From NCBI GenBank assembly GCA_026004595.1, contig BPJL01000002.1, positions 1,431 through 65,430 of the forward strand: 64,000 nt of DNA, in the 5' to 3' direction. Numbering within the stretch: position 1 is the stretch's first letter; every line of letters begins with the position of its first letter. The translations under genes and the position numbers were made by a program. Below are positions 8,337-59,574 of the stretch, piece after piece. Below the pieces are notes generated by a model, which was given only the letters and a program-made list of their open reading frames with translations, was not told where the DNA came from and searched no databases. The stretch is from Patescibacteria group bacterium (GTDB lineage: Bacteria > Patescibacteriota > WWE3 > UBA101185 > UBA10185).

Positions 8337-8468
8337 ATGAAATCTGCTGCGCAACATGGTCGCTTGCGGCAGACGGAGCAAGTAGCGAAACCGGTCTCTC
8401 TGTTGAGGTCGGTTTTTTTATCAGAAGAGTTCTGGCCAACTTTTCTGATGCACCGTAAAAAATTATGA
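8337..8468 (+). CDS. Candidate 43-aa upstream ORF. Its TGA stop overlaps the ATG of the giant surface-protein gene (ATGA)
   Basis: ATG 8337, in-frame stop at 8466-8468. Encodes MKSAAQHGRLRQTEQVAKPVSLLRSVFLSEEFWPTFLMHRKKL and contains a hairpin plus T-run. Speculative. Confidence 0.2.
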   Translation: MKSAAQHGRLRQTEQVAKPVSLLRSVFLSEEFWPTFLMHRKKL

Positions 8469-11400
8469 AGCTTAAAAAAACGATAACAAGAATAGCAAAG
8501 CTCAAAATAAAAAAAGATACGCGTAAGAGAATTTATCTGAACATCGCAATACTGTCGATGTTACTAAACAGTTTTTATCCGTTCCTTGCTTCCTATCAGT
8601 ATGTGTATGCCGAAGACGAGAAAGCGGTTGTTGAGGAAACTTCTTCAAGTGAAGAAGACTCTGACAGCGCAGAGGAATCCAGCGCGCCGGAGGAGACGGC
8701 TTCAGAAGAAGCTGACACGACTGAAGAGCCAGCTCCAGCAACAGAAGAGACCGATCCCGTAGACACGACCGAGTCTACCGGTGAAGTGTTAGGAATCTCA
8801 ACAGAAGACCAGAATGCTACCGAAGGTACCGATAGTGCCGTGGGAACCGAAGGTATTGCCGAGACACAGCCCGTTGCTGATGAAGCTCAATTGCCGGATA
8901 TTTTGCCGGATGGGGTGAGTGATTCTAGACCGGTTGGGAGTGAGCCCGCGTCTGAAATTATTCCTGTTACTGATACTACCAATCAGGATTTAGATCAACT
9001 TTCAGTTTATAGGCTGTCACATGTCGCTGATGGATTAGGGTCATGTCCGATGACAGGAGCTATTTGGACGACGGATAGCAATTGTACGGTAACTAATCAA
9101 AATATTTACTTTAGCAAATCAGAAGTTTACTTAAATGGCGGACCAGCTGGGAACGGAGGAGGCCCCGGCCTTCCTGACGGGAATTACTATGTAAGGGTTA
9201 CAGATCCAAGTGGTAAAGCTATTCTTGGTGAAAGCAATGAGCCCTCGGTTACTGTATCCGGGGGGGTTTTCGGAGAGTGCTATAAGCTTCAGAATGTAGT
9301 AGGCTATGATAGTACTAGTGGGTTTAAAGATACAACTAATCCAGGTGGTGAGTATAAAGTGTGGGTTAGCCCGGACAAAAATTTTAAGGATTGTTCTAAA
9401 ACCGATAATTTCAAAGTTTTGGAAAAAGGGTTCTGTGGCGACGGCAACGTGAACGCCCAAAACGAACAGTGCGACGACGGAAATAGAGATAATAATGACT
9501 ACTGCAGCAATACATGTCAATTTAACTCCGTTTGTATTCCAGATGTAAATATGCTCGTTAATGGAGATTTTGAAACTCCGGAAGTAACTAGTCATTATAA
9601 ATGGGATATATTCAATATGTATTCGCCAATGTTAGGTTGGAATGTGGTATGGAACGGAGGAAGTGCTAGTTATAGCGGACAAACAAGGCCTGAACCTGCA
9701 TACCTTGAATTACACAGAGATGTAAACGGGTGGAGTTCAGCATCTGGTAGTCAGTACGCTGAACTAGACACCGATTGGGACGGTCCTGGGAATCCGTTGA
9801 ATAACGAGCCTGCAACGGTAGGAATCTCTCAGGAAATTCCTTTAATAGACGGATATAAGTACAAAGTCAAATTTTCATATTCTCCAAGACCGGGGACAGA
9901 TGCTTCGAACAATGTCATGGATTTCGCCTGGGATGGGACAACAGTCGATACCTATTCCGGCGCTGGTGGAGGCAACACCTCTTGGACACCGAAATCTTAT
10001 GAGTTCGTTGCGGGCAAGACCGCTATTACAAATGTAGCTTTTGTCGAAAAAGGCACAGCGGATTCACTTGGGATGTTCTTGGATAATGTTAGCGTTACCT
10101 GTTTGGGGCCTGAAATAATACCTAAATGTGGCGACGGGTTGTTGAACCAGACGACGGAGGAATGTGATGGAACTTCTGGTGTCACATTAGGCAAGAACTT
10201 CTGTACATACAATTGTAAACTGGTACCAATTTACGATGGCGCCCACACGTGTTCTGAGGGGAAATATCCGGTTGCTTATAGCGGGCCTTTCACAATATCT
10301 AGTACCGATGGTGATGGGATAACCATTCCTGTGGTAGGCGGGAAAGAATATCTGTTTAAAGTATCCGGCACTTTTGTTCCAACCGGAGCTTCTGGTTACA
10401 TCTCTGACGCGGGGTATACATTGATAAACGGAGTACTTGCAAATCAGTATGGGATAAAGGGAACACCCCCTGATTTAGGTACCCACGCTTTACTTGGAAA
10501 TTTTGGGGAGGGTGTGGGTATAGTTGATTGGGGTAACTACAACAGCGAGCATATTTATACCAAAGCCTATACATTTGATAATAATGATAATAATTACGAT
10601 ATTAACTTCTTGATAGGTGATAGATACGATAATTGGTTTAATACAGCTTGGAACAACCAGGATGGAATGAAGGATAATTCCGGGAATCTTTCCTTAACGG
10701 TTTACGAATGTGCCACCCCTGTTTGTGGAAACGGACAGCGCGAGTTTGGGGAAGAGTGCGACGGAACCGATGGAATCAAATCAGGAGAAAACTTCTGTAC
10801 ACCCACCTGCAAACTGATACCCCTTTATGATGGGGAACACATGTGTGCGCCAGGAACTACACCGGTAAAAGTTGGCGATACCTATGTCATAGATTCTAAA
10901 GATAGTGATGGGGTTACAGTACCTCTAATTGGTGGCCAGGAATATCTTTTCAAGGTTTCGGGAACATATAAATTCGGTGCCCCCAATGATAATCGAGTTG
11001 CTGATGCAGCTTATGGCTCAGAGAACTCTTGGACTTCGGTAAGAACCGATCTTGGCATTTGGGGGAGCTCGCTTCGTGGGGTACTTTCACTGCTAGGGAA
11101 TTTGGGAATGGGTATTGGTGTAATAGAGTGGGATAACGACTCAATATTTGATCAAGACCACGCGTATGAAAAGGTATTTACTCCAGCGAGTGATATGTCA
11201 GCCCAATTTTTAATTAGTGATTGGTATAGTAACTGGTACGAAAATACATGCAAGAACCAAAGCTGTATGAGCGACAACAAGGGCTCTCTGAGTTTAGAGG
11301 TGTATGAGTGTCAGCCCTCTTCGAATGTTACCGTCTGTAAGTACGATAGTAAAAATAAACCGCTTACGGGATGGAACGTTTCTCTTAAAGGTGATTTGGT

Positions 11401-13552
11401 GGGTACGTTGAATGTATTGCCTAATGGTTCTGACTATAACTCAGCCGGGTTGCCAGTTGGTGATTATGTCTTGGAGGCGAGCGGTTACTATACGTACAGA
11501 CCCGGAACTGCTGGTGCGGAGTATACAGATGCCAACTACTCAAAGAGACACCCTAGTGATCCTGTCTACGGGGGACCTTACATACCTTGGGTCAATGTAA
11601 ATTCTTTCCCGTCCCCACACACAGGTTGGTTAGGTGTGATGGTTAACGGGGCTCCTACAAACTGGAGTGATTATTATGCATCAGATCACAAATATTTGCT
11701 TGGATTTGAGAATTATAGTGGCCCCTTCTCCTTTAAGATATTGGACGATGTCTATACTGACAATAGCGGAAGTATAACAGTTAATATATATAAAGGTTAC
11801 GCTGGGGTTACCGGAGAAGATGGTTGTGTAACATTTAAGGATGTCCCATTAGGTGACTATAGACTAGATGAAACACTCAAAGATGGTTGGGTGAATTTGA
11901 ATGAAACGAGAGGGAAACGGGTCAGTGTTGATGGACAAGAAGATCGTTTTACCCTCGTAAATGAAGATTTAAGTGATGTGGGTTTAGATATTTCAAAGAC
12001 GAATCTTAACTGGCCTGATCAACTGCAGAGTGGAGATATAGTAACGTACCAGATAACTATAAGAGCAGTAGGAGGCCCGCTATTCGATGTATTTGTTGTT
12101 GACCTCCCGCCTACAGGATTTGTGCCCGGTAACTTTCAGACATCTGCAAGTATAGAAGGACTTCCAACTTATGCCTCGCCCGGTAAATGGCACATTGGTG
12201 ATATGGAAGAAGGAGATGAAATAGTTCTTACATACGATGCTGTGGTGGGTTCAGATGTTGATCCGGGTGTCTATCCTGATCTAGCGTGGGCTTATGGGAG
12301 TAACATAATTGGAGGTAAAATAATCGCAAATTCAAAAGAGAGTGGTTTTGCTGTTAATAATGGGATTGTAAACGAAACTTTTGTTGGTACGCAAGTCGAG
12401 GTGGTCAGGGAAAATGAGTCGCCAAAAGTTAAAACCGAAGTAGACGAAAAGACCGTTGAAGAAGGAGTACTTGGTGCTTCTACCGCAAGACTCCCTGCCA
12501 CCGGTCAAAATGTAGTAATACTAATTTCTGTCTTAGCGCTTATGCTTACAGGTACTCTAATAATGGCTCTGTCAAGGAAAAAGAAAATTCTGAAGATACT
12601 TCCGATACTTTTTCTTGCAGCAGCTCTATATGGTGGAATGGATAGCGTATTAGCAGCCAATCTTTCTGTACGAATTGAGGATCCAAAGTCTCCTGTTAAC
12701 AGCCCGTTCCAGGTAACATTTGTTGTACTCAATGCCGATCCTAACGAGGGCGATTTGCACTATCAGTGTTGGATAGATGGTCCCACAAGCGGCTGGGAAA
12801 AGTTGGGTAGTGAAGGTACCTTGCCTAACGAAGGAGGTACAGATGTCTGTGATGTTACAGAATCTGTGTTGACAAGCGACGGTTTATACAGCATTAAAGT
12901 TGTTGTTGAAGGGGTTGAGTCTGCTACGGTATCAACAACATACGACAACACCCCACCCAGCAAACCCAAATACATCGAAGTTGACAGAAAATCCGCCTGC
13001 AAATACGAAATAGAATTCAAAACAGCCAACGACGGCCAAACATCATACGTTGAAGTGTACATGTCAGATGATAAAGAATTCACAGCAGGCTCCGGAAGCA
13101 GGATAAGAACCATAACGATAGGCCCCGACCAAAAATACAAGTTTACCGAAGAAGTTGCTGGAGATAAATGCGCCCACAGACAATACTTTGCCGTTCGCGC
13201 CTTTGATTCCGCAGGCAACGGGTCAAAGGTTGAAGCCGAAGAAGTGACAGACATTGAATACAAGACAATATATAAAGAAGGGACCGAAGAAGTAACCCAA
13301 GAAGCCTACGCCGGAGGAGCGGCTTCATCTATTGGCGCAGGAGCGGGTGAAGAAGGCGCCGAAGTAGTTACGTCAGAAGAAGAAATGCCTAGCGAAGAAG
13401 GAAGCATTTTGGGTGAGCAGGCCCAAGCGGAAACCGGAGCCGAAAAAGGATTCTTTGGCAAACTCATCTCAAGCCCCTGGACATGGATAATACTAATCTT
13501 GGCGCTCGGAATAATAACGATAAATGGAATCAGAAAGAGCAAGAAAGAATAA
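8465..13552 (+). CDS. Giant secreted cell-surface protein (1695 aa as read). Signal peptide, acidic S/T/E/D-rich linker, three CGDG/CGNG...ECDDGN cysteine-rich repeats (Myxococcus-type), two ~245-aa tandem modules, DUF11/CARDB-like region, and an LPATG sorting signal at residues ~1343-1376. An extra ~320-aa C-terminal module with its own hydrophobic leader and C-terminal TM may be a separate gene
   Basis: Single long ORF. Signal peptide MKLKK...YVYA. Repeated CxDGxxNxxxEQCDDGN motifs at ~9430, ~10130 and ~10730. LPATG at 12491-12505, then hydrophobic stretch and SRKKK. A 1-nt change in the A5/A4 tract at 12578-12587 would end the protein as ...SRKRKF*. Confidence 0.7.
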   Translation: MKLKKTITRIAKLKIKKDTRKRIYLNIAILSMLLNSFYPFLASYQYVYAEDEKAVVEETSSSEEDSDSAEESSAPEETASEEADTTEEPAPATEETDPVDTTESTGEVLGISTEDQNATEGTDSAVGTEGIAETQPVADEAQLPDILPDGVSDSRPVGSEPASEIIPVTDTTNQDLDQLSVYRLSHVADGLGSCPMTGAIWTTDSNCTVTNQNIYFSKSEVYLNGGPAGNGGGPGLPDGNYYVRVTDPSGKAILGESNEPSVTVSGGVFGECYKLQNVVGYDSTSGFKDTTNPGGEYKVWVSPDKNFKDCSKTDNFKVLEKGFCGDGNVNAQNEQCDDGNRDNNDYCSNTCQFNSVCIPDVNMLVNGDFETPEVTSHYKWDIFNMYSPMLGWNVVWNGGSASYSGQTRPEPAYLELHRDVNGWSSASGSQYAELDTDWDGPGNPLNNEPATVGISQEIPLIDGYKYKVKFSYSPRPGTDASNNVMDFAWDGTTVDTYSGAGGGNTSWTPKSYEFVAGKTAITNVAFVEKGTADSLGMFLDNVSVTCLGPEIIPKCGDGLLNQTTEECDGTSGVTLGKNFCTYNCKLVPIYDGAHTCSEGKYPVAYSGPFTISSTDGDGITIPVVGGKEYLFKVSGTFVPTGASGYISDAGYTLINGVLANQYGIKGTPPDLGTHALLGNFGEGVGIVDWGNYNSEHIYTKAYTFDNNDNNYDINFLIGDRYDNWFNTAWNNQDGMKDNSGNLSLTVYECATPVCGNGQREFGEECDGTDGIKSGENFCTPTCKLIPLYDGEHMCAPGTTPVKVGDTYVIDSKDSDGVTVPLIGGQEYLFKVSGTYKFGAPNDNRVADAAYGSENSWTSVRTDLGIWGSSLRGVLSLLGNLGMGIGVIEWDNDSIFDQDHAYEKVFTPASDMSAQFLISDWYSNWYENTCKNQSCMSDNKGSLSLEVYECQPSSNVTVCKYDSKNKPLTGWNVSLKGDLVGTLNVLPNGSDYNSAGLPVGDYVLEASGYYTYRPGTAGAEYTDANYSKRHPSDPVYGGPYIPWVNVNSFPSPHTGWLGVMVNGAPTNWSDYYASDHKYLLGFENYSGPFSFKILDDVYTDNSGSITVNIYKGYAGVTGEDGCVTFKDVPLGDYRLDETLKDGWVNLNETRGKRVSVDGQEDRFTLVNEDLSDVGLDISKTNLNWPDQLQSGDIVTYQITIRAVGGPLFDVFVVDLPPTGFVPGNFQTSASIEGLPTYASPGKWHIGDMEEGDEIVLTYDAVVGSDVDPGVYPDLAWAYGSNIIGGKIIANSKESGFAVNNGIVNETFVGTQVEVVRENESPKVKTEVDEKTVEEGVLGASTARLPATGQNVVILISVLALMLTGTLIMALSRKKKILKILPILFLAAALYGGMDSVLAANLSVRIEDPKSPVNSPFQVTFVVLNADPNEGDLHYQCWIDGPTSGWEKLGSEGTLPNEGGTDVCDVTESVLTSDGLYSIKVVVEGVESATVSTTYDNTPPSKPKYIEVDRKSACKYEIEFKTANDGQTSYVEVYMSDDKEFTAGSGSRIRTITIGPDQKYKFTEEVAGDKCAHRQYFAVRAFDSAGNGSKVEAEEVTDIEYKTIYKEGTEEVTQEAYAGGAASSIGAGAGEEGAEVVTSEEEMPSEEGSILGEQAQAETGAEKGFFGKLISSPWTWIILILALGIITINGIRKSKKE

Positions 13553-37263: not shown

Positions 37264-37299
37264 CACCTTTTTGCCGCGAGAGCTGATATAATTTACTTG

Positions 37300-38217
37300 A
37301 TGCTGAAAACCTGCCCTCAGTGTGGAAGAAATCTAACAAAAGCTGATAACTACTTTTGCCATGTTTGTGGAGCAGTTACAGGTGGAGGTGCGGCAAGATC
37401 TAATAAACGTTACTATTTGGGTTCCAAAACTTCTTTAAAAGATGGTGTTTCTTTTAGTTTATCGCCTTGGGGGTTTTTGGCAGGTGTTTGTGTTTTTATT
37501 TTATTGGTGGGTTCAGCTATTCTCTCATCTCGCATAGCCAGCAAGGCCGCGGATAGGGGAAGTTTAGTTATTTCAAACATGTTTTCTTCAAATAATTCTC
37601 CTGCCCCCCAACAGGTAAGTAAAAATGAAAAATCTTCGGTTCCGGACAGCTTCTCGCTCGCTTCTGACATTGAGAACTTTGTTCCATTTCAGACGGATTT
37701 TGTAGTCGTATTTTATTCCCATTTAGATTTTTTGGACGCTCTTAAATTTTTTAAGGTAGAAAATACGTTTGATGTGGATTTTCTCAAAAATCTAAACCGC
37801 CCTCCCTATGTGATAATTCTAACCCCGCCGGCGGGGGAAAATGAGGAGTTGAGAACAGCATTGCTGCTGTTTCCTGTTGAGAAACCGGCCGAGGGTGATT
37901 ATTCCAGATATGTTGATAAGGAATTTTCAGAAACAATTTTAGATAAAGCTGTTGTTTTGGCGAATGATCCTGGTGTTGCTGAAGAAATTACCCAAGTATC
38001 CAAAGGACTCCACAAGGGAATAGGGCTTAATTCATACTATATGAATATAAGACGTAAAATTCCGGAAAATGTGAGGTCAAAGATTTTTGTCTTTTCTAAT
38101 ATTGGTGTAGGATATGTTAACCAGCTTGATACCGACAAGATGCCGGAATCAGTAAAAATGCTGGTTATAAATTATATGAAATCCGGCAGTTATTACGGAT
38201 TTGTAGAATATGAATGA
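37300..38217 (+). CDS. Hypothetical membrane protein with an N-terminal zinc ribbon (CPQCG...CHVCG) and one TM
   Basis: ATG 37300 lies 7 nt after TGATATAAT (37284-37292). Overlaps the downstream Lon-like ATPase gene by 8 nt. Confidence 0.5.
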   Translation: MLKTCPQCGRNLTKADNYFCHVCGAVTGGGAARSNKRYYLGSKTSLKDGVSFSLSPWGFLAGVCVFILLVGSAILSSRIASKAADRGSLVISNMFSSNNSPAPQQVSKNEKSSVPDSFSLASDIENFVPFQTDFVVVFYSHLDFLDALKFFKVENTFDVDFLKNLNRPPYVIILTPPAGENEELRTALLLFPVEKPAEGDYSRYVDKEFSETILDKAVVLANDPGVAEEITQVSKGLHKGIGLNSYYMNIRRKIPENVRSKIFVFSNIGVGYVNQLDTDKMPESVKMLVINYMKSGSYYGFVEYE

Positions 38218-39283
38218 CGCGGCAGATAAAAAAGATTTTTTGTTCGATGAGCTTCGAACTCTAACCCAGAAGGTTAACGAAACCGAGGGAATCCCCGAGA
38301 TTTTAGCCGACCGCTTGAAGCAGATGATTCAGAGGCTTGATAGGATGGCGAACCTTGGCCACTACGCCACGGAGTACGATACATTGGCGAGGTACATCGG
38401 GATAGTTACATCAATTCCTTGGGTAAAGAAAACAGAGGACAGGATGGATTTACAGATAACAAAGCAGATTCTGGATGAGCATCACTACGGTATGGAGTAT
38501 GTAAAAGAGAGAATATTGGAGTATATGTCCACATTGATTTTGTTAAAGAAGAGAGGCAAAGAGGTACTACAAAGGGCGCCCATTTTGCTTCTTGTAGGGT
38601 TGCAGGGAGTTGGAAAGACAACTCTTGCTATGTCAATTGCCGAGGCTCTCCAGAGGAAATTTGTACGAATAGCTATGGGAGGGATCGGTTCAACATTAGA
38701 GATAAGAGGCAGGAGCAAGGCATTCCCTGAGTCGGAACCTGGGCTAATTATAAAAGCACTCATAAACGCCGGGGTAAAGAATCCTGTGATACTTCTTGAT
38801 GAAATTGAAAAGGCCAGTGGAGAGGCCGGTCTGCAGTCAGACATTATGGCAGTTCTATTGGAGATACTTGACCCCGCTCAAAATGTTGCCTTCAGGGACC
38901 ACTATATTGATTTTCCTGTTGATTTATCCGAAGTGATGTTCATTTGTTCCGCGAATAATCTTGGTCCCATATCAACCGCCCTTTTAGATAGGATGGAGGT
39001 AATTAAAATGCCTTCTTACAGCGATGCGGAAAAAATGGTAATTGCGCGTGATTACATACTCCCAAAGGTTATAGAAAATTCGGGTCTCAAGCCTGAGGAG
39101 TTAATAATTGACCCCAACTTGTGGCCAGGAATAATTAGGCCGTTTGGTTATGATTCGGGCATAAGAAGCTTAACCAGAACTTTAGAGTCAATATGTAGAA
39201 AGGTGGCAAGGGAAATTGTGGAGGGCAAAGTTGATAAAGTTTACCTCACTGCCGATAACCTAAAACACTATCTCCCAAAATAG
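38210..39283 (+). CDS. Lon-like AAA+ ATPase module lacking both the Lon N-terminal substrate domain and the S16 protease domain
   Basis: Aligns to the Lon helical-linker plus AAA+ region: SIPWVKKTEDRMDLQITKQILDEHHYGMEYVKERILEY, Walker A GLQGVGKTTL, Walker B ILLDEIEK. Ends where the Lon protease domain would begin. Confidence 0.7.
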   Translation: MNDAADKKDFLFDELRTLTQKVNETEGIPEILADRLKQMIQRLDRMANLGHYATEYDTLARYIGIVTSIPWVKKTEDRMDLQITKQILDEHHYGMEYVKERILEYMSTLILLKKRGKEVLQRAPILLLVGLQGVGKTTLAMSIAEALQRKFVRIAMGGIGSTLEIRGRSKAFPESEPGLIIKALINAGVKNPVILLDEIEKASGEAGLQSDIMAVLLEILDPAQNVAFRDHYIDFPVDLSEVMFICSANNLGPISTALLDRMEVIKMPSYSDAEKMVIARDYILPKVIENSGLKPEELIIDPNLWPGIIRPFGYDSGIRSLTRTLESICRKVAREIVEGKVDKVYLTADNLKHYLPK

Positions 39284-44256: not shown

Positions 44257-45264
44257 TTAGGAGCGGATTTCAGCGTCTATAAATTCATCCAATCCTCCGT
44301 CGAGGATGTAGTCAGGGTCCGAAGATTCGACTCCGGTTCTCAGATCTTTTACTAGTTTATAGGGATGTAAAACGTAGTTTCTAATTTGATTCCCCCATCC
44401 GGGCATCTTATATTCTCCCTTTGCTTTCTTTTTTTCTTCCTCGATTTTTTCCTCTTCCATTTTGTACAGCTTTGATCTTAATATTTTCAGCGCTTTCTCT
44501 CTGTTTTTTCCTTGGAACCTTTCTTCTTGGCATTCAACAATAATTCCGGTGGGTTTGTGCTTAAGACGCACGGCAGTCGAAACCTTATTTACATTTTGTC
44601 CTCCGCTGCCGCCGGATCTGAAAAAATCCCATTCAAGATCTTCATCTTTTATCTCAATATCTCCCAAATCATCATTTATCAATGGAATGACCTCTACTAG
44701 GGCGAATGAAGTTTGGCGGAGGTTATCAGCATTGAAGGGGGATTGCCTTACCAATCGATGAACGCCTGATTCACGTTTTAAAAATCCATAGGCGTATGGA
44801 CCTGATATTTCCAGAGTTGCTGTCTTTATCCCCGCTTCCTCACCGGGGGTCATACTTACTTCATGCCATTCCCATCCGGTCTTTTCTGCGTATCTTTTAT
44901 ACATTCTCAAAAGCATGGCTGCCCAATCCATGGCTTCCGTTCCTCCCTGGCCGGCGTGTATTGTTACAATTGCGTCGTTTCGGTCGTGTTTATCCTTGAA
45001 AAAGGTTTTTAATTCAAGACGGTGTAGTTCTCGTTCAAAATTTTCTTTGTCCCCTTCCTCTGCCATAAGCTCAAGCATCTCATAATCTTCTATGTCTTTT
45101 TTTAACGCCGCCAGATCTTTTGCTACCCCGGTGCCTTCCTCCCAGTTTTTCCATGTAGATTCATCAACGACTCTTTCCTCAAGAGCTTTTATTTTGGCCC
45201 TTTTTTCTTCAATAAAAAGCCCTTCTTTAAGTTGTTTAAGCCGTTCTCTCAATGTTTCTTCCAT
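44257..45264 (-). CDS. prfB: Peptide chain release factor 2 (no programmed +1 frameshift)
   Basis: SPF tripeptide (QSPFNADN) and GGQ ([12 protein letters not shown]). Single uninterrupted 335-aa ORF. Confidence 0.88.
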
Positions 45265-45289: not shown

Positions 45290-47857
45290 TTACTCCAGAG
45301 CCTCTAGTCCTAAAAGAATTTGGTCGCCGGGGTTTATTTCTTTTCGAAGCATTTTAGTAGCAAGGTAGGTTTCAACCGTGTCTTCTATGAGACGAGCCAG
45401 CGGACGGGCGCCCCATTCAGGAGAAAAGCCCCTTTTGGCAAGTTCGTCAACAAGCTCCTGTTTGAATCTTATGTTGACTCCCTTTTCACTTGCCATTTCT
45501 TTGACTCTATCCAGCATAAGAGAAGTTATTTGCTTAACGTTTTCTTCAGATAGGGGGTTGAAAATTATGATTCCTGAAAATCTATTTAAAAACTCGGGAG
45601 CGAACCTCTCTCGTACTTCTGACATTGCCTTCTCTCTCATTTTCTCAAGAGTCCCATGTTCTGCAAAAACCTGCTGAATTGCCTTTGTTCCCACATTGCT
45701 TGTGGCAATTATTATTGTGTTCGTAAAATCTATTTTCATTCCTGTGTTGTCCGTTAGTTTTCCCTCATCTAAAACCTGCAGAAAGGTTAAGAGAATGTTA
45801 GGATGAGCTTTTTCTATTTCGTCCAGCAGAATTAGTGCGAATGGCTTACTCCTCACCATATTTGTCAGCAGTCCCTTTGTTTTGCCGTCGGGTGTTCCGA
45901 GCAGACGATTTATGCTGTCTACCTGTTGATACTCGCTCATATCTAGCCTGATCATATTATTTGTGTCTCCGAAGTAGTGCTTGGCCAAAGCTTTTGCAGT
46001 TTGAGTTTTTCCTATTCCGGTTGTTCCTACAAATAGAAAACTTGCGATGGGCTTGTTTTCGTCACGTATCCCCGCCCGCGCCCTTCTTAAGGCGGTAGAT
46101 ATTTGTCTGACAGCTTCGTCCTGGCCCACGATCATTTTTTTCATCGTTTCCTCAATAGAAAGGAGCTTTTGAGCCTCGTCTTGAGAAATAGTTTCAACGG
46201 GTATACGAGTCATTTCAGCAATCTCTGCGGCTATGTGGGTTGAAGCAAGAATGGGGGAATTTTCCACAACCCTCGCAGCTGTTCGGTTAAGTATGTCTAT
46301 TGCTTTGTCGGGCAGTACTCTTTCGTGCATTAGTTTTTCTGATAGTTCAACCGTTTTGACCAGGGCGGGGTAAGTTATGGTTATATTGTGTTTGGCTTCA
46401 AGTTTGTCGGCTTTTGTTTCAAGAATTTTTACTGTTACATCTTTCGGCAATTCATCAATTTCAACAATATGGAAAAGACGGGAGAAGGCTCCATTAGGTT
46501 CTATGTATTTTCTGAAATTTGAAATTGTTGTTGCCCCGATGAATTTTATTTTTCCTTCTGAAAGATGGGGTTCCAGTATGGTGTAAATTGTTGATGTTTC
46601 TGCATTAGAATCTCCTGCGCTGGCAACGACGTTATGAATTTCGTCAATGAATAGAATAATATCTCCTGATCCTTCAACCTCTTCCATCACCTTTCTTAGG
46701 TTCTGTGCTATCATCCCTGGAGTTGTAGCGCCGGAAATGAATCCCCCAATGTCCAGACCAACCAGCCTGTGGTTGCTTATGGATTTGTATTCGTTGCTCT
46801 CGATTATGGCTTGGGCGATACCTTCTATCAAAGTTGTTTTTCCGCTTCCGGGCTCTCCGACGATAAGCACATTTTCTTTCTGTCCGGATAGTATTTGGGC
46901 GATTGTTTTAATATCCTCATCTCTGCCTAGTATTTTTTTGTACTTGCCACGCAAAATTTCTTTTGTAAAGTCACGGGACATTGAGTCAAGAGTAGGCGTG
47001 ACCCTTCCAAGCATCCCTCTTCCTATGCCGCCGGTGAAAATCAATTGGTAATCGTCCTGCCAGAGAAAAAGTCTATTTCTCTCATTTCTTTTATCGTTTT
47101 CCCATTCAACGGCCCTCGCTACATATTTCATAGAACTGTTTAGCGATGCTAATATAATGTCAATTTTTGGGATGTTGTTAAGCACGGCAAGAAGAAGATG
47201 ATCCAGCTCAATATACTTTGACTTGAGTCTTAAAGCGTCAGAAAACATTGCCTGTCCCAAAGTTGATTGTTGTATTACAGGGGCTGATTTCAATTTTTCA
47301 AAAAGCAGATCCTTGTTTATTTCCGATCGGATAAGAATAAGTTTTGAAATGTCCTGTTCAAAAAGCCATTTAATTCCCTTGGTTTGATCTATAGTCAGCT
47401 TTTCCAAACCTTTTAGTACATTGTTTCTGCAACTTGCCTTGAAGTTTTCTTTTGTATTTTTTTGGACTCTAACTCTTGGTGTATCTCGGTTCCTAATAAG
47501 GTAAAGAAGATAAAATGCAATGAAATAAGCTACAGTATAATCCAAACCCTTGTATTTTAAAACAGCTACGGGAGCCGCAAACCACCCAATTATCGCTAGG
47601 GAAGATATTATGACAAGCAGAAGCATATATACCAGTCCGAAAGCTATCCAAAATATTCTTATGACAAATCCCGCAAGCCTTCCAACTATGGTGTAGTCGC
47701 CGAAAAGGGGAACAAAGAGAAGTTGAAGGTTCGTTGAAAACGAGATCTGGTAGTTCACAAGTATAATAAGATGTGAAAATACTTTTATTATTCTCCTTGG
47801 AGCTGATAAAAGCCACCAGAATATAAACTCGTGGGGCATCCTGGGCAGGGATTTCAT
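45290..47857 (-). CDS. Membrane-anchored Hsp100/Clp-family double-AAA+ ATPase. ClpB-like: no IGF/IGL ClpP-docking loop and no long M-domain
   Basis: N-terminal ~130 aa with 3-4 hydrophobic helices, then Clp-N-like repeats ([10 protein letters not shown]). D1 has [14 protein letters not shown] and ILFIDEIH. D2 has [19 protein letters not shown] and [11 protein letters not shown]. Starts 13 nt after the sipW stop. Confidence 0.8.
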
Positions 47858-47869
47858 AACATAAGGATA

Positions 47870-48301
47870 TCAGACTCGGACAACCTTTTGTATTGTGAGT
47901 TGATGAAAAACGATACCTATTCCAAAACCCGCGCACCAGTATAGGAGAGGCAGCCCCGAAGCTTTTATTATGTAATGTGTCGGAAGGGAAAAAACGGCCT
48001 TCCCGACAATCTCTTTTTGTACAATTGGGTATGGATCTTCGTTTTGATTGTTGTCGCCTTTGGTTATGAAAAGGTCGTTCCTAATCTCAACTATTCTATG
48101 CGTTATGTATGTATTGTTTTTTTTGAATGCCGCTATGTCGCCAATCTTTAACCTGCGGGCGGGTATCACGATTACTATGTCGCCTTTCCGTATATAGGGT
48201 TCCATAGAATCACTTTTAACGTACAGTGTTTTTATCCCACCTACATACGCCGCTAGAATAACCAGTGCTATTAAAATTAGTGTGTAATACCTGCCCGTCA
48301 T
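47870..48301 (-). CDS. sipW: Signal peptidase I of the archaeal/ER type (S26B, SipW-like)
   Basis: 143 aa. N-terminal TM. SDSMEP serine box and THR histidine box; short, without the bacterial LepB box architecture. Confidence 0.75.
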   Translation of the reverse strand: MTGRYYTLILIALVILAAYVGGIKTLYVKSDSMEPYIRKGDIVIVIPARRLKIGDIAAFKKNNTYITHRIVEIRNDLFITKGDNNQNEDPYPIVQKEIVGKAVFSLPTHYIIKASGLPLLYWCAGFGIGIVFHQLTIQKVVRV

Positions 48302-48328
48302 GTCTGATCAAATATTTTAATGTGCCAA

Positions 48329-48907
48329 TTACTGTTGTACTGATTCGAATTCAAAATCAAACATAGCCGATTTTCCCTGTTTTGTAGCGCTTAGGTTATC
48401 TACTGAGAACCTGAGCACCAAAGGTCTCGTCTGACCCGGGTTGATTTGCCCGACGCCTATTCCCTCGGTCTTCCATTTTATTATCGTTTTCTTGGCTAAG
48501 CTAAGTCCGATTTCTCCTGAGTCAAGAACGCCGTTGTTGTTTGCATCATTCCATTCAAATATCTCTACATAAATATCTGATCTTAAATCAGCTGGGTCGT
48601 TTGCTGTTTCGTAATAGGCTTTTGAGGTTACGGATATTTTTAATGATCCGTTGTTTATAAGTTTCAAGGGGTAATCAGCTGACCACGTTTGTCCGATATT
48701 AGAGAAAGAAGGGCCTGGTAACTCATCAACCAGATTTGTGGGCTCGGTGCCGAGAGGCAAATCTTTAAGAAATTTTAAGTCAGCACTGCCCACCGAAAAA
48801 GTAGAGCCGAGAACCTTTGCTTTGTCTGTAAATGCGGCTAAAGTTACACCCGTTATCAAAGATACCAGGGTTAAAATAACTAATGCGTAAATAATCTTTT
48901 GTTTCAA
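48329..48907 (-). CDS. TasA/CalY/camelysin-family secreted protein with a SipW-cognate signal peptide
   Basis: Signal peptide then LAAFTDKAKVLGSTFSVGSADL, matching the TasA N-terminal signature (AAFNDxxxxxxTFxxGTLDL). 192 aa. Immediately upstream of sipW. Confidence 0.65.
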   Translation of the reverse strand: MKQKIIYALVILTLVSLITGVTLAAFTDKAKVLGSTFSVGSADLKFLKDLPLGTEPTNLVDELPGPSFSNIGQTWSADYPLKLINNGSLKISVTSKAYYETANDPADLRSDIYVEIFEWNDANNNGVLDSGEIGLSLAKKTIIKWKTEGIGVGQINPGQTRPLVLRFSVDNLSATKQGKSAMFDFEFESVQQ

Positions 48908-57023: not shown

Positions 57024-59574
57024 ATGTTTAAGTTTTTCGGCGATCCTAACGAGAAACAACTGAATAGGATTAGACCCATTGTTGCGGAGATCAATTCCTT
57101 GGAGGATTCTGTCCAAAAACTTTCTCAAGAAAAGATGAGAGAGAGAGTATTGGAGTGGAAGGCACAGCTTAGAGGTCTTGATTATGAAGAGCAAGAAAAG
57201 CTGATGAGAAAAAATCCTTCCCGAGGCCTTTGCCTTTGTCCGTGAGGCATCGGTTAGAACATTGGAAAAGAGGCACTTTGATGTGCAGTTAATGGCAGGT
57301 GTCGTTTTTACACGAGGGAAAAATTTCGGAACAGAAAACTGGAGAAGGAAAAACTTTGACCGCGACCCTACCTCTTTTTCTAAACTCCTTGACTGGGCGC
57401 GGGGTTCATTTGGTAACTCCCAATGATTATCTTGCACGCCACGGTGCTGGTTGGATGGGACCTATTTATGACTACCTTGATATAAGTGTTGGAGTAATTA
57501 TGCAAGAGAGGGCGTTTGTGTATGATAGTACATTCAAAGGAACTGAGTTTGAAGATATTTATGCTATTCATTTGAAAGAGGTTTCAAGGCAGGAAGCTTA
57601 TAAATGCGATGTTGTTTACGGAACTAATCATGAATTTTGGGTTTGACTACCTTCGGGATAACATGGTGTACAACCTTGAAGCTATGGTGCAGACAAATCC
57701 AAATGGAGAGTTTGGGGTTCATAATTTTGCGATAGTTGATGAAGTTGACTCTATATTAATAGATGTTGCTAGAACCCCCCCTTATTATTTCTTCTGCTGA
57801 TGCTAAACCATCTTCACGGTATTATGATGCTGATCGCATTGTTAAAACTCTCGCCAAGGGTATTGACTACGAAGTTGAAGAAAAATTCAGAAACGTCACT
57901 TTAACAGATTTAGGAATAAGACGAGTTGAGAGGCTTTTGGGGGTTGAGAATCTATACGAACAGGATTTTGAAATGGTCCATTTGATAGAAGAGGCTCTCA
58001 CAGCTCATGCTTTATATGAAAAAGATAGAGATTATGTGGTGAAAGACGGAAAGGTAATTATAGTTGATCAATTCACAGGAAGACTTCTGCCAAACAACAG
58101 GTTTTCCCACGGATTACACCAGGCTATTGAGGCAAAAGAAGGTGTAGAGATTCAACAAGAATCCAAAACTTTAGCTGAAATTTCCTATCAAAATTATTTT
58201 AGAATGTACAAGAAACTGGCGGGCATGACAGGTACGGCAGCTACCGAAGCTGAAGAGTTTTACAAAATCTATAAGCTGGAGGTTGTAGTTATCCCAACCA
58301 ACAAGCCGAATATAAGAAAAGATCATAACGATGTGATTTACAAAACGGAAAGCGCGAAGTTTAAGGCTGTAGCTGATGATATTGCTGAGAGGCATGCTAG
58401 GGGCCAGCCAGTTCTTGTTGGAACAACTTCTGTGGAGAAAAGTGAACAATTGCACGCACTGTTGGTAAGAAGGAAGATACCCCACGAAGTATTAAATGCA
58501 AAAAACCACGAAAAGGAAGCTTTGATAATAGCTCAAGCAGGGAGAAAAGGTGCTGTGACAATTTCAACAAACATGGCTGGACGAGGGGTCGATATTGTTT
58601 TGGGTGGAGATCCTCCAGACGAAGAGCAGCAGAAAGAAGTGTTGGAAAAAGGCGGATTGTATGTTATAGGCACCGAACGCCACGAGTCGAGGAGAATAGA
58701 TAATCAGTTGAGAGGTCGGGCAGGAAGGCAGGGGGATCCTGGCGAAACCAGATTTTATGTCTCATTGCAGGACGATCTAATGAGAGTTTTCGGTGGCGAA
58801 CAGGTGAGCAGGCTGATGGATCGCTTTGGTATCGATGAGACTATTCCACTTGAGGCCGGACTTGTTACCAGATCAATTGAAAGTGCCCAGAAAAAAGTTG
58901 AAGGCTTTAACTTTGACAGAAGGAAAAATGTTGTGGAAATGGACGACGTTATTAACGTTCATCGCGAGGTTATTTACAAACTGAGAAGAAGAATTTTGGA
59001 ATTAGGAGCGGGGATCACGACCAATAAAGAATGGATAATTGGCAAATTATCTTCAATGTCAGTATTGAGCTCGGAGTTGTGGGAGCAAAAAGAAAGAGAA
59101 TTTGGGGAGGAAACTTGGTATAAGATCGTTTCGGATTGGAGCCTTAGGGTGATAGATAATTTCTGGATGGATCACCTGGTTGATATGGATCAAGTTCGGG
59201 AAGGAATAGGTTTAAGGGGCTATGCTCAGAGAGATCCAATGGTTGAATACAAAAAGGAAGGGCACGAGAGATTTGAAATTTTGTTGGCAAGAATTTATTC
59301 AACAATAGGTGAGCGCCTTGAAAAGGCAACGACAGATTCTGTAGTAAGAGTATCTCCTTCAGAGAGCCAGCTTTTGGCCAGAGCAAACTACCTTCACGGT
59401 GATTTTGAAAGCGGTGTCAGAGACGAGATGGGTCAGGCTTCTCCTCGTTTTGTTGATCCTTTGGGAAGAGTTGTTAAAGTTCAAGCTGTAACTTCCGGCA
59501 AAGAAAAAGTGGGAAGAAACGACCCGTGCCCATGTGGTAGCGGGAAGAAGTATAAGAATTGCCATGGAAGATAA
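57024..59574 (+). CDS. secA: Preprotein translocase ATPase SecA, interrupted by four +1 homopolymer frameshifts in its first ~760 nt
   Basis: Pieces at 57024, 57299, 57609 and 57763 align consecutively to SecA ([58 protein letters not shown]-terminal [14 protein letters not shown] zinc finger). Shifts lie in A6 (57209-14), T5 (57305-09), T4 (57635-38) and C7 (57775-81). TGCTATAAT sits 10 nt upstream of the ATG. Confidence 0.85.

What the first reader, a model, noticed from the sequence alone, without database searches (positions are those of the whole stretch)
45290..47857. Hsp100/Clp ATPase with an N-terminal multi-pass membrane domain and no ClpP-docking loop
Class-1 Clp ATPases (ClpA/B/C) are normally soluble. 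This one begins with ~130 residues containing 3-4 hydrophobic helices, followed by Clp-N-like repeats and two AAA+ modules. The region after Walker B of D2 lacks the IGF/IGL tripeptide needed to bind ClpP, and the inter-domain linker is too short for a ClpB-type coiled-coil M-domain. It is therefore neither a canonical ClpB nor ClpC, but a membrane-tethered, probably protease-independent unfoldase.
Basis: seen in the sequence. Interest (0 to 1): 0.65.

Follow-up and report, generated by a model that had tools for sequence, protein, structure and literature searches.

The report
Membrane-anchored Clp-like ATPase lacking substrate-gripping loops
This gene from a tiny uncultured bacterium (Patescibacteria) encodes a two-ring Clp/Hsp100 ATPase fused to a conserved small membrane protein; it cannot dock ClpP and has lost both tyrosines that relatives use to grip and thread proteins, so its database label "Clp protease ATP-binding subunit" is probably wrong.

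Summary
Window 45290-47857 (-) is an intact 855-aa gene. It encodes an N-terminal membrane module, a Clp_N-fold domain, and two AAA+ modules. It has no M-domain and no ClpP-docking tripeptide. The start is not mis-called: the N-terminus is conserved from about residue 7 in 76 representative clusters, in 59 species genomes (all Patescibacteria, mostly WWE3) and in at least 120 full-length clusters.

1. Both pore-loop tyrosines are missing family-wide (ClpB Y251 position 0/74, Y653 position 1/74), and the D2 loop is shortened or deleted. All D2 catalytic residues are 74/74. A classical threading unfoldase is therefore doubtful.
2. The membrane part is a conserved module, not just an anchor: an amphipathic helix, the motif F-x-P-L-F-G-D-Y-T-x-x-G-R...R (the best-conserved stretch of the protein), and a 2-TM hairpin. 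In other lineages the module is a separate ~110-aa gene directly upstream of a TM-anchored Clp-like ATPase (5 of 6 cases confirmed).
3. prfB lies directly downstream in 41/52 loci. In four distant loci the order is secA, this gene, prfB, ftsE, ftsX, M23.

Verdict: a distinctive and apparently undescribed Hsp100 variant. The architecture is solid; the mechanism is inferred.

The parts
45290..47857 (-). Whole gene, 855 aa: membrane module + Clp_N + D1 + D2
   Evidence: full-length AF2 pLDDT 87.2, pTM 0.78
47744..47836 (-). Residues 8-38: amphipathic, probably membrane-surface helix (consensus F..WW....P...)
   Evidence: AF2 helix 8-38; muH 0.52, <H> 0.15, mean 4.0 K/R across 74 members
47657..47722 (-). 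Residues 46-67: family signature motif [11 protein letters not shown]..GR.igf..R at the cytoplasm-membrane interface; P50 and R67 invariant
   Evidence: highest mean pairwise identity of any region (0.50)
47561..47656 (-). Residues 68-99: TM1 (in to out), ending in the conserved W92...P96
   Evidence: KD 2.29, muH 0.21; part of AF2 helix 57-103
47495..47545 (-). Residues 105-121: TM2 (out to in), followed by a K/R-rich stretch; corresponds to the own N-terminal TM of the ATPase gene in split systems
47078..47452 (-). Residues 136-260: nine-helix Clp_N-fold domain, poorly conserved in sequence (0.18)
   Evidence: Foldseek: top 50 PDB hits are all Clp/Hsp100 N-domains; weak Pfam Clp_N hit; identity by region
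46982..47077 (-). Residues 261-292: conserved linker W.(D/Q)DY.....GG.(G/N)RG(M/W)TGR.TP.LD; W266 near-invariant, G277 invariant
   Evidence: (identity 0.41)
46253..46981 (-). Residues 293-535: D1 AAA+ module. Walker A GEPGSGKT 334-341, Walker B D405-E406, R460 (= ClpB R331) kept, L461 replaces R332. No M-domain insertion.
46715..46732 (-). Residues 376-381 GATTPG: D1 pore-1 loop. T379 stands at the position of ClpB Y251 (KYR).
   Evidence: 0/74 aromatic
45293..46252 (-). Residues 536-855: D2 AAA+ module + D2-small. Walker A 611-618, Walker B D679-E680, sensor-1 N721, Arg finger R759, sensor-2 R818; all conserved 74/74.
45872..45898 (-). Residues 654-662 GTPDGKTKG: D2 pore-1 loop, 4 residues shorter than ClpB GAPPGYVGYEEGG. 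K659 stands at the position of Y653.
   Evidence: 1/74 aromatic; loop deleted in several members
45581..45697 (-). Residues 721-759: segment that carries the ClpP-docking IGL/IGF/VGF loop in ClpA/X/C. Here it has ClpB-like length and no hydrophobic-Gly-hydrophobic tripeptide.
44257..45264 (-). prfB (RF2), 25 nt downstream on the same strand; the most widely conserved neighbour of the fused family
   Evidence: 41/52 loci
47870..48301 (-). SipW-like S24/S26 signal peptidase, 12 nt upstream on the same strand (WWE3-specific neighbour)
48329..48907 (-). 192-aa secreted protein with a SipW-dependent-type signal peptide (WWE3-specific neighbour)

Best explanation
The gene encodes a Patescibacteria-specific class-I Hsp100/Clp paralogue. 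It is built as a fusion of a conserved small membrane protein with a TM-anchored double-ring AAA+ ATPase.

Shown. The membrane part consists of an amphipathic helix, the interfacial motif F-x-P-L-F-G-D-Y-T-x-x-G-R...R and a TM helix. The N-terminus is conserved, and the fusion also exists as two adjacent genes in other lineages. A Clp_N fold follows, then a canonical D1-D2 body closest to ClpC. There is no M-domain and no ClpP-docking tripeptide. D2 has a complete catalytic set. D1 keeps Walker A/B and one of its two arginine fingers. Both pore-1-loop tyrosines are absent in essentially all members.

Inferred. The protein forms a hexamer held against the cytoplasmic face of the membrane by an N-in/C-in hairpin per subunit. 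D2 is the ATP-driven motor. The machine works without ClpP and without the DnaK coupling that needs an M-domain. The conserved interfacial motif and linker, rather than the pore loops, form the working end. ATP-driven ring movements are passed to the membrane module to remodel or release a membrane-associated client. This would be a Torsin-like, non-threading mode rather than ClpB-type processive unfolding.

Its conserved place next to prfB, and in some lineages inside secA-X-prfB-ftsEX-M23, suggests a constitutive role related to the envelope or secretion.
For: Architecture and start.

Topology.

Clp_N fold.

Canonical ATPase body: target-normalised TM 0.80-0.86 and rmsd ~4 A to ClpC/ClpC1/ClpB/ClpA protomers over ~570 columns.

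No M-domain or ClpP loop.

Motif census on 74 unique members. Y251 position 0/74 aromatic; Y653 position 1/74. D2 Walker A, Walker B, sensor-1, Arg finger and sensor-2 are all 74/74. D1 Walker A 74/74, Walker B Glu 67/74, R331 62/74, R332 0/74.

Functional meaning of these residues: PMC6593972 and PMC5319980.

The module is more than an anchor. Motif 46-67 has the highest conservation of any region (0.50, against 0.47 for D2 and 0.39 for D1). Stand-alone ~110-aa module genes lie immediately upstream (8-nt overlap to 13-nt gap, same strand) of TM-anchored Clp-like ATPases that also lack pore tyrosines, confirmed in 5 of 6 cases; the sixth contig is too short to tell.

Context: prfB downstream in 41/52 loci; secA-X-prfB-ftsE-ftsX-M23 in L058, L059, L060 and L072; clpP in 0/72 loci and absent from the window.

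Precedent for a membrane-associated, Clp-related AAA+ without aromatic pore loops: Torsins (PMC5425593).
Against: No experiment exists, and the client is unknown. Loss of aromatic pore-loop residues makes threading unlikely but does not exclude it; other loop residues could still grip a special substrate. Topology rests on hydropathy, charge bias and AF2, not on a dedicated predictor or on data. Hexamer formation is assumed from homology. I could not scan whole genomes, so a distant clpP, or a canonical ClpB in the same organism, is not excluded. Conserved gene order next to prfB may reflect operon inheritance rather than function. The split-system members (P0052 and P0030 relatives) sit in other contexts.
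Confidence: 0.5

Rival explanations
1. One reading: a membrane-tethered but otherwise classical Hsp100 unfoldase. It extracts or unfolds membrane or membrane-proximal proteins by threading them through the central pore without a protease partner, like Msp1 or a protease-less FtsH.
For: Canonical double-ring Hsp100 body with an intact D2 motor. Clp_N domain present. Membrane anchoring. No ClpP loop. Some AAA+ rings tolerate non-aromatic pore residues (own knowledge).
Against: The Y251 position is never aromatic (0/74) and the Y653 position is aromatic in 1/74. The D2 pore loop is 4 residues shorter in the WWE3 clade and deleted in P0019, P0025, P0029 and P0040. Y653 is essential for ClpB disaggregation (PMC6593972). 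A loop that is free to vary in length and sequence is not under the constraint expected of a substrate-gripping element.
Confidence: 0.25
2. An ATP-regulated scaffold or switch. The rings mainly bind and slowly hydrolyse ATP to control assembly or gating of a membrane complex formed by the small-protein module, doing little mechanical work on a client.
For: D1 has lost one of its two arginine fingers in all members (R332 to L/V), and Walker B Glu is substituted in 7/74. Pore loops are degenerate. The best-conserved elements are the membrane-interface motif and the linker. The module exists as a separate subunit.
Against: D2 keeps every catalytic and sensor residue in 74/74 members. Such conservation is typical of an active motor rather than a mere nucleotide sensor.
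Confidence: 0.15
3. As annotated in databases: a ClpA/ClpC-type ATP-binding subunit of the Clp protease that docks ClpP in a non-canonical way.
For: Best sequence and structure matches are ClpC and ClpC1. Sources name it 'ATP-dependent Clp protease ATP-binding subunit', ClpA or ClpC.
Against: No [ILV]-G-[FL] tripeptide at the docking position in any member, and the segment has ClpB-like length. No clpP in 72 loci or in the window. No pore-loop tyrosines to feed a protease. Scores are below half of the ClpA cut-off.
Confidence: 0.04
4. Artefact: a mis-called start or a chimeric ORF, the true product being a soluble Clp ATPase that starts at an internal Met.
For: Internal Met codons exist at residues 78, 204, 243 and 282. 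No obvious Shine-Dalgarno sequence upstream. secA in the same window carries frameshifts, so the assembly is not flawless.
Against: The N-terminal region is conserved from residue ~7 in 76 clusters and 59 genomes, with invariant P50, R67 and P96. The intergenic gap to the upstream gene is 12 nt. An identical gene is called in an independent assembly. Split versions encode the module as a gene of its own.
Confidence: 0.01

Closest known systems
ClpC / ClpC1 (Firmicutes, Actinobacteria)
   Same: Best sequence match (S. aureus ClpC 6em8, E 5e-133) and best structural match (target-normalised TM 0.80-0.86, 37-42% identity over D1-D2). Shares the Clp_N-fold N-domain and two AAA+ rings.
   Different: No M-domain: the ClpC 407-470 segment is deleted. 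No ClpP-docking loop: there is a gap at the ClpC 'FAGFGG' segment. No pore-loop tyrosines. An N-terminal membrane module is added.
ClpA
   Same: Class-I architecture without an M-domain; aligns in a single stretch 304-852.
   Different: ClpA has the IGL ClpP loop and the KYR/GYVG pore loops, and it is soluble. TIGR02639 scores 496 against a cut-off of 993.
ClpB / Hsp104
   Same: No ClpP loop, and the same length for that segment. Highest NCBIfam score (TIGR03346, 551 bits).
   Different: ClpB is defined by the long coiled-coil M-domain that couples it to DnaK, and by essential pore tyrosines. Both are absent here. The score is far below the cut-off of 1232.
Torsins (eukaryotic ER/nuclear envelope AAA+)
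   Same: Clp/Hsp100-related AAA+ without aromatic pore loops, membrane-associated through an N-terminal hydrophobic region, working with a separate membrane-anchored partner (PMC5425593). This is a resemblance in how it may work.
   Different: Torsins have a single AAA+ domain, lack their own arginine finger, and sit in the ER lumen. This protein has two rings, keeps the D2 arginine finger (74/74) and is bacterial. It is not a family member.
FtsH, Msp1/ATAD1, Bcs1 (membrane-anchored AAA+)
   Same: N-terminal TM anchoring of a hexameric AAA+ ring at the cytoplasmic or matrix face of a membrane.
   Different: Those have a single classic-clade AAA ring with aromatic pore loops, and FtsH has an M41 protease domain. 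Here there is a double Hsp100-type ring, no protease domain and no aromatic pore loops.

Membership tests
Class-I Clp/Hsp100 superfamily | Two tandem AAA+ modules (D1 classic-type, D2 AAA_2 type) with a ClpB_D2-small C-terminal subdomain | tested here: met
   Pfam AAA, AAA_lid_9, AAA_2, ClpB_D2-small; Foldseek target-normalised TM 0.80-0.86 to ClpC/ClpB/ClpA protomers
Class-I Clp/Hsp100 superfamily | Clp_N double-repeat N-terminal domain | tested here: met
   Sub-threshold by Pfam (E 0.025). The AF2 model's top 50 PDB hits are all Clp N-domains. PF02861 is precomputed in some members.
Class-I Clp/Hsp100 superfamily | Conserved aromatic pore-1 loops (KYR in D1, GYVG in D2) | tested here: not met
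   0/74 and 1/74 aromatic at the two positions; D2 loop shortened or deleted
ClpB/Hsp104 | Long coiled-coil M-domain inserted in the D1 small subdomain | tested here: not met
   No insertion in any of 27 aligned members; the ~120 ClpB M-domain columns are gaps; ClpC 407-470 deleted
ClpB/Hsp104 | NCBIfam TIGR03346 equivalog cut-off (1232.1 bits) | tested here: not met
   551.1 bits
ClpB/Hsp104 | No ClpP-docking tripeptide | tested here: met
ClpA | IGL ClpP-docking loop after D2 sensor-1 | tested here: not met
   E. coli ClpA shows IGL in the alignment; no family member has a tripeptide at that position
ClpA | NCBIfam TIGR02639 cut-off (993.15 bits) | tested here: not met
   496 bits
ClpA | ClpS adaptor binding by the N-domain; clpS gene adjacent | tested here: not met
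   No clpS-like gene among the neighbours: upstream is a signal peptidase, downstream is prfB. Binding itself is not testable here.
ClpC | Short M-domain (MecA/McsB docking) and VGF/AGF-type ClpP loop | tested here: not met
   Both segments are gaps in the alignment to S. aureus ClpC
ClpV/TssH | TIGR03345 cut-off (884.95 bits) and a type VI secretion gene context | tested here: not met
   466.4 bits; no T6SS genes in any neighbourhood examined
Torsin | Single AAA+ domain, no intrinsic arginine finger, ER-luminal | tested here: not met
   Two AAA+ modules; D2 Arg finger 74/74; bacterial origin
FtsH | AAA module followed by an M41 zinc protease domain | tested here: not met
   No Peptidase_M41 hit
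Proposed family: Patescibacteria membrane-module Clp-like ATPase | N-terminal module with F.PLFGD(Y)(T/S)..GR....F.R motif plus TM hairpin, fused or encoded immediately upstream | tested here: met

The most novel reading that the evidence does not exclude
Patescibacteria (CPR) possess a previously unrecognised two-component membrane machine. It consists of a small, highly conserved membrane subunit and a double-ring Hsp100 motor that has given up polypeptide threading. The motor acts through the membrane subunit, as a bacterial counterpart of the Torsin-cofactor principle. It would serve an essential envelope or secretion process linked to the secA-prfB-ftsEX cluster, for example clearing or remodelling membrane-embedded complexes in organisms with minimal proteostasis networks.
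Probability: 0.25. Interest if true: 0.8.

Novelty: new variant of a known kind. Interest (0 to 1): 0.62.

Why it matters
Hsp100/Clp machines are textbook soluble, pore-loop-driven unfoldases. A large and well-conserved clade breaks that picture in three ways: it is integrated in the membrane through a dedicated conserved module, it cannot dock ClpP or couple to DnaK through an M-domain, and it has lost both gripping tyrosines while keeping a fully intact D2 motor.

If the inference holds, it gives a bacterial and genetically simple model for non-threading, membrane-coupled AAA+ action. That mode is still unresolved for Torsins.

It also flags a systematic mis-annotation. Hundreds of Patescibacteria genes are labelled 'ATP-dependent Clp protease ATP-binding subunit / ClpA / ClpC', which distorts reconstructions of proteostasis in CPR genomes.

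Finally, it assigns a partner to a family of ~110-aa 'hypothetical' membrane proteins.

Tried and rejected
Searches that led nowhere.
- The word-indexed protein search with the N-terminal 291 aa, and with the 25-sequence alignment A1, returned only one protein, P0001. The exhaustive HMMER search was needed instead.
- A genome scan with A1 failed for lack of a conserved 7-10-column stretch. It worked with the 6-sequence alignment A2, which biases the species list toward WWE3-like members.
- Pfam and NCBIfam have no model for the membrane module or the stand-alone small proteins, even at E<=10.
- Foldseek against PDB found nothing for the membrane part.

Literature. Searches on Patescibacteria/CPR with ClpB/ClpP/transmembrane, on membrane-anchored Hsp100, and on the WWE3 RAAC2 genome paper found no description of this family. 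A search for a citable statement of the secA-prfB operon found none, so that point rests on my own knowledge of B. subtilis.

Explanations considered and rejected.
- Mis-called start: rejected because the N-terminus is conserved.
- ClpV: no T6SS context, and the score is below cut-off.
- A functional link to the adjacent SipW/TasA-like pair: it is confined to WWE3 and absent in distant members, so it more likely reflects conserved gene order.
Full report
**1. What is there**

Window 45290-47857 (-) is an uninterrupted 855-aa ORF with an ATG start. It begins 12 nt after the stop of the upstream gene. The identical product is called in an independent Logan assembly and is in NCBI as 'hypothetical protein KatS3mg101_0233 [Patescibacteria group bacterium]'.

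Pfam finds AAA (330-467), AAA_lid_9 (473-560), AAA_2 (602-761) and ClpB_D2-small (769-847). NCBIfam ranks ClpB, ClpA, ClpK, ClpV and ClpG models highest, but every score is below half of its curated cut-off: ClpB 551 against 1232, ClpA 496 against 993, ClpV 466 against 885. The best solved relatives are ClpC proteins. D1 (query 285-535) aligns to ClpC 158-407 and D2 (536-837) to ClpC 470-782. The ClpC M-domain is therefore absent, and the query has a gap at ClpC's 'FAGFGG' ClpP loop.

**2. The N-terminus is real**

The first 286 residues, searched exhaustively against 1.84 billion representatives, recover 76 clusters (27 at E<=1e-10). Twenty-six of them are full-length proteins of 780-880 aa whose match starts at their own residues ~6-13.

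A pattern scan of one genome per species found 59 loci. All are Patescibacteria, mostly candidate division WWE3. The closest are 64-67% identical in this region and include the complete RAAC2_WWE3_1 genome. A full-length search lists at least 120 clusters at the 90% level with 46-88% identity and 99-100% coverage.

P50, R67, P96 and G277 are invariant, and W266 is nearly invariant. A mis-called start is excluded.

**3. Anatomy of the N-terminal 292 residues**

AF2 with a 25-sequence alignment gives pLDDT 88.9 and pTM 0.76. It places helices at 8-38, 40-45, 57-103 and 105-123, followed by a nine-helix bundle at 136-260.

Across 74 members:
- Helix 8-38 is amphipathic (muH 0.52, <H> 0.15, 4.0 K/R).
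- Segments 68-99 and 105-121 are uniformly hydrophobic (KD 2.3 and 2.1, low moment).
- The 5-residue loop between them is nearly uncharged (0.6 K/R).
- The flanks are basic (2.0 K/R in 57-67, 3.2 in 122-135).

This fits an N-in/C-in two-TM hairpin preceded by a surface helix, not 3-4 passes.

All top 50 Foldseek hits of the model in the PDB are Clp/Hsp100 N-domains: ClpC1, ClpC, ClpB, Hsp104 and HSP101, with probability ~1, target-normalised TM 0.5-0.57 and 130-140 aligned columns.

**4. The membrane part is a module, not just an anchor**

The segment 46-67 has the consensus [11 protein letters not shown]..GR.igf..R. It has the highest mean pairwise identity of any region among 27 representatives: 0.50, against 0.47 for D2, 0.39 for D1, 0.18 for Clp_N, and 0.25 and 0.14 for the two TM helices. 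No Pfam or NCBIfam model matches it.

About twenty hits are stand-alone proteins of 110-150 aa that cover only query residues 10-100. I looked up six of them.
- In five (P0064, P0072, P0077, P0059, P0075), the gene lies immediately upstream of a Clp-like double-AAA+ gene on the same strand, with spacing from an 8-nt overlap to a 13-nt gap. That downstream gene itself begins with one or two TM helices.
- In the sixth (P0067), the contig ends before the ATPase domains could be seen.

The downstream ATPases also lack pore tyrosines. Carriers include candidate division Kazan and Minisyncoccia. The window protein is therefore the fused form of a two-gene system.

**5. The ATPase**

I aligned the window protein with 26 representatives and with E. 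coli ClpA and ClpB taken from the annotated genome. I then extended the alignment to 74 unique members.

| Feature (E. coli ClpB numbering) | Family count |
|---|---|
| D2 Walker A Lys | 74/74 |
| D2 Walker B Glu | 74/74 |
| D2 sensor-1 Asn | 74/74 |
| D2 Arg finger (R756) | 74/74 |
| D2 sensor-2 (R815) | 74/74 |
| D1 Walker A Lys | 74/74 |
| D1 Walker B Glu | 67/74 |
| D1 R331 | 62/74 |
| D1 R332 | 0/74 (Leu or Val instead) |
| D1 pore-loop Tyr (Y251) | 0/74 aromatic (Thr or Ser in 54) |
| D2 pore-loop Tyr (Y653) | 1/74 aromatic |

The D2 pore loop is four residues shorter in the WWE3 clade (GTPDGKTKG against GAPPGYVGYEEGG) and is deleted in several members. R331/R332 and R756 are the ClpB arginine fingers (PMC5319980). 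Y653 is essential for disaggregation and Y251 contributes to it, and both contact the threaded chain (PMC6593972).

No member has an M-domain insertion. The sensor-1 to Arg-finger segment is 38-40 aa, as in ClpB, with no [ILVMA]-G-[FLIM] at the ClpA IGL position.

The full-length AF2 model (pLDDT 87.2, pTM 0.78) superposes on ClpC, ClpC1, ClpB and ClpA protomers with target-normalised TM 0.80-0.86 and rmsd ~4 A.

**6. Context**

In WWE3 the order is L13, S9, (HTH), RadC, a secreted 192-aa protein, (SipW-like peptidase), this gene, prfB, then further on FtsK, RNase J, UDG and a Lon-like AAA protein.

Across all loci with enough flank, prfB lies 0-1.5 kb downstream in 41 of 52. In four distant loci (L058, L059, L060, L072; 37-38% identity) the order is secA, this gene, prfB, ftsE, ftsX, M23 peptidase, all on one strand.

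No clpP homologue occurs in any of 72 loci or in the 64-kb window. Split-system members and two other fused members sit in other contexts. The only universal partner is therefore the membrane module.

**7. Interpretation**

Shown: the architecture, its conservation, the absence of the M-domain, the ClpP loop and the pore tyrosines, an intact D2 catalytic set, and the existence of fused and split forms.

Inferred: a hexamer at the cytoplasmic membrane face, D2 as the motor, independence from ClpP and DnaK, and action through the conserved interfacial motif and linker rather than by threading. This mode recalls Torsins. Torsins are Clp-related, lack aromatic pore loops, associate with membranes through an N-terminal hydrophobic region and work with membrane-anchored partners (PMC5425593).

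It is not a Torsin: it has two rings and its own arginine finger. It also fails defining features of ClpA, ClpB, ClpC and ClpV.

'Unfoldase' is doubtful.

**8. Novelty and limits**

Databases label these genes 'ATP-dependent Clp protease ATP-binding subunit', 'ClpA', 'ClpC' or 'AAA family ATPase', and label the small partner 'hypothetical protein'. Eight literature searches found no description of the family.

I rate it a new variant of a known kind.

Limits:
- No whole-genome check for clpP or a canonical clpB.
- No dedicated topology predictor.
- No multimer modelling.
- No experiments.
- The species list is biased toward WWE3 by the search patterns.

Noticed in passing
window 57042-59574 (+): secA is broken over several reading frames. 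tblastn with an intact 854-aa CPR SecA hits 57042-57179 (frame 3), 57214-57321 (frame 1), 57236-57637 (frame 2), 57633-57779 (frame 3) and 57778-59571 (frame 1). That means at least three frameshifts in the 5' third, caused either by assembly indels or by a pseudogene.
   Followed up: partly
window 37297-39283 (+): A 357-aa protein (38210-39283) consists of a Lon-type AAA+ module plus Lon_lid. It is 42% identical to E. coli Lon residues 275-579 but has no Lon protease domain. It is preceded by an overlapping 306-aa ORF (37297-38217) with no Pfam hit. The AAA protein recurs near the Clp-like gene in about half of the WWE3-type loci and the 306-aa ORF in only a few. This may be a second protease-less AAA+ system in the same genome.
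   Followed up: partly
window 47870-48907 (-): A 192-aa secreted protein has a SipW-dependent-type signal peptide (TIGR04088, 20 bits against a cut-off of 19; sequence ...TLAAFTDKA...). It lies directly next to a SipW-like S24/S26 signal peptidase. This looks like a TasA/camelysin-style fibre pair, conserved upstream of the Clp-like gene in WWE3: 45/58 loci for the secreted protein and 25/58 for the peptidase.
   Followed up: partly
L079:882-3038 (+): In one split system, the TM-anchored Clp-like ATPase carries an extra N-terminal CxxC...CxxCxGxG element (CPDCHADG...CPTCSGSG) before its TM helices. It resembles a DnaJ/ClpX-type zinc finger.
   Followed up: no
window 8465-13552 (+): A 1695-aa ORF whose only Pfam hit is a weak SpaA/prealbumin-like domain. 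It is probably a giant surface protein of the kind reported in CPR genomes (PMC3812714).
   Followed up: no
window 44257-45264 (-): prfB (RF2) is a single continuous ORF. It lacks the programmed +1 frameshift site found in many bacteria: the N-terminal region aligns continuously across the position where E. coli RF2 shifts frame. This comparison is by eye from the translation and from my own knowledge of E. coli RF2.
   Followed up: no
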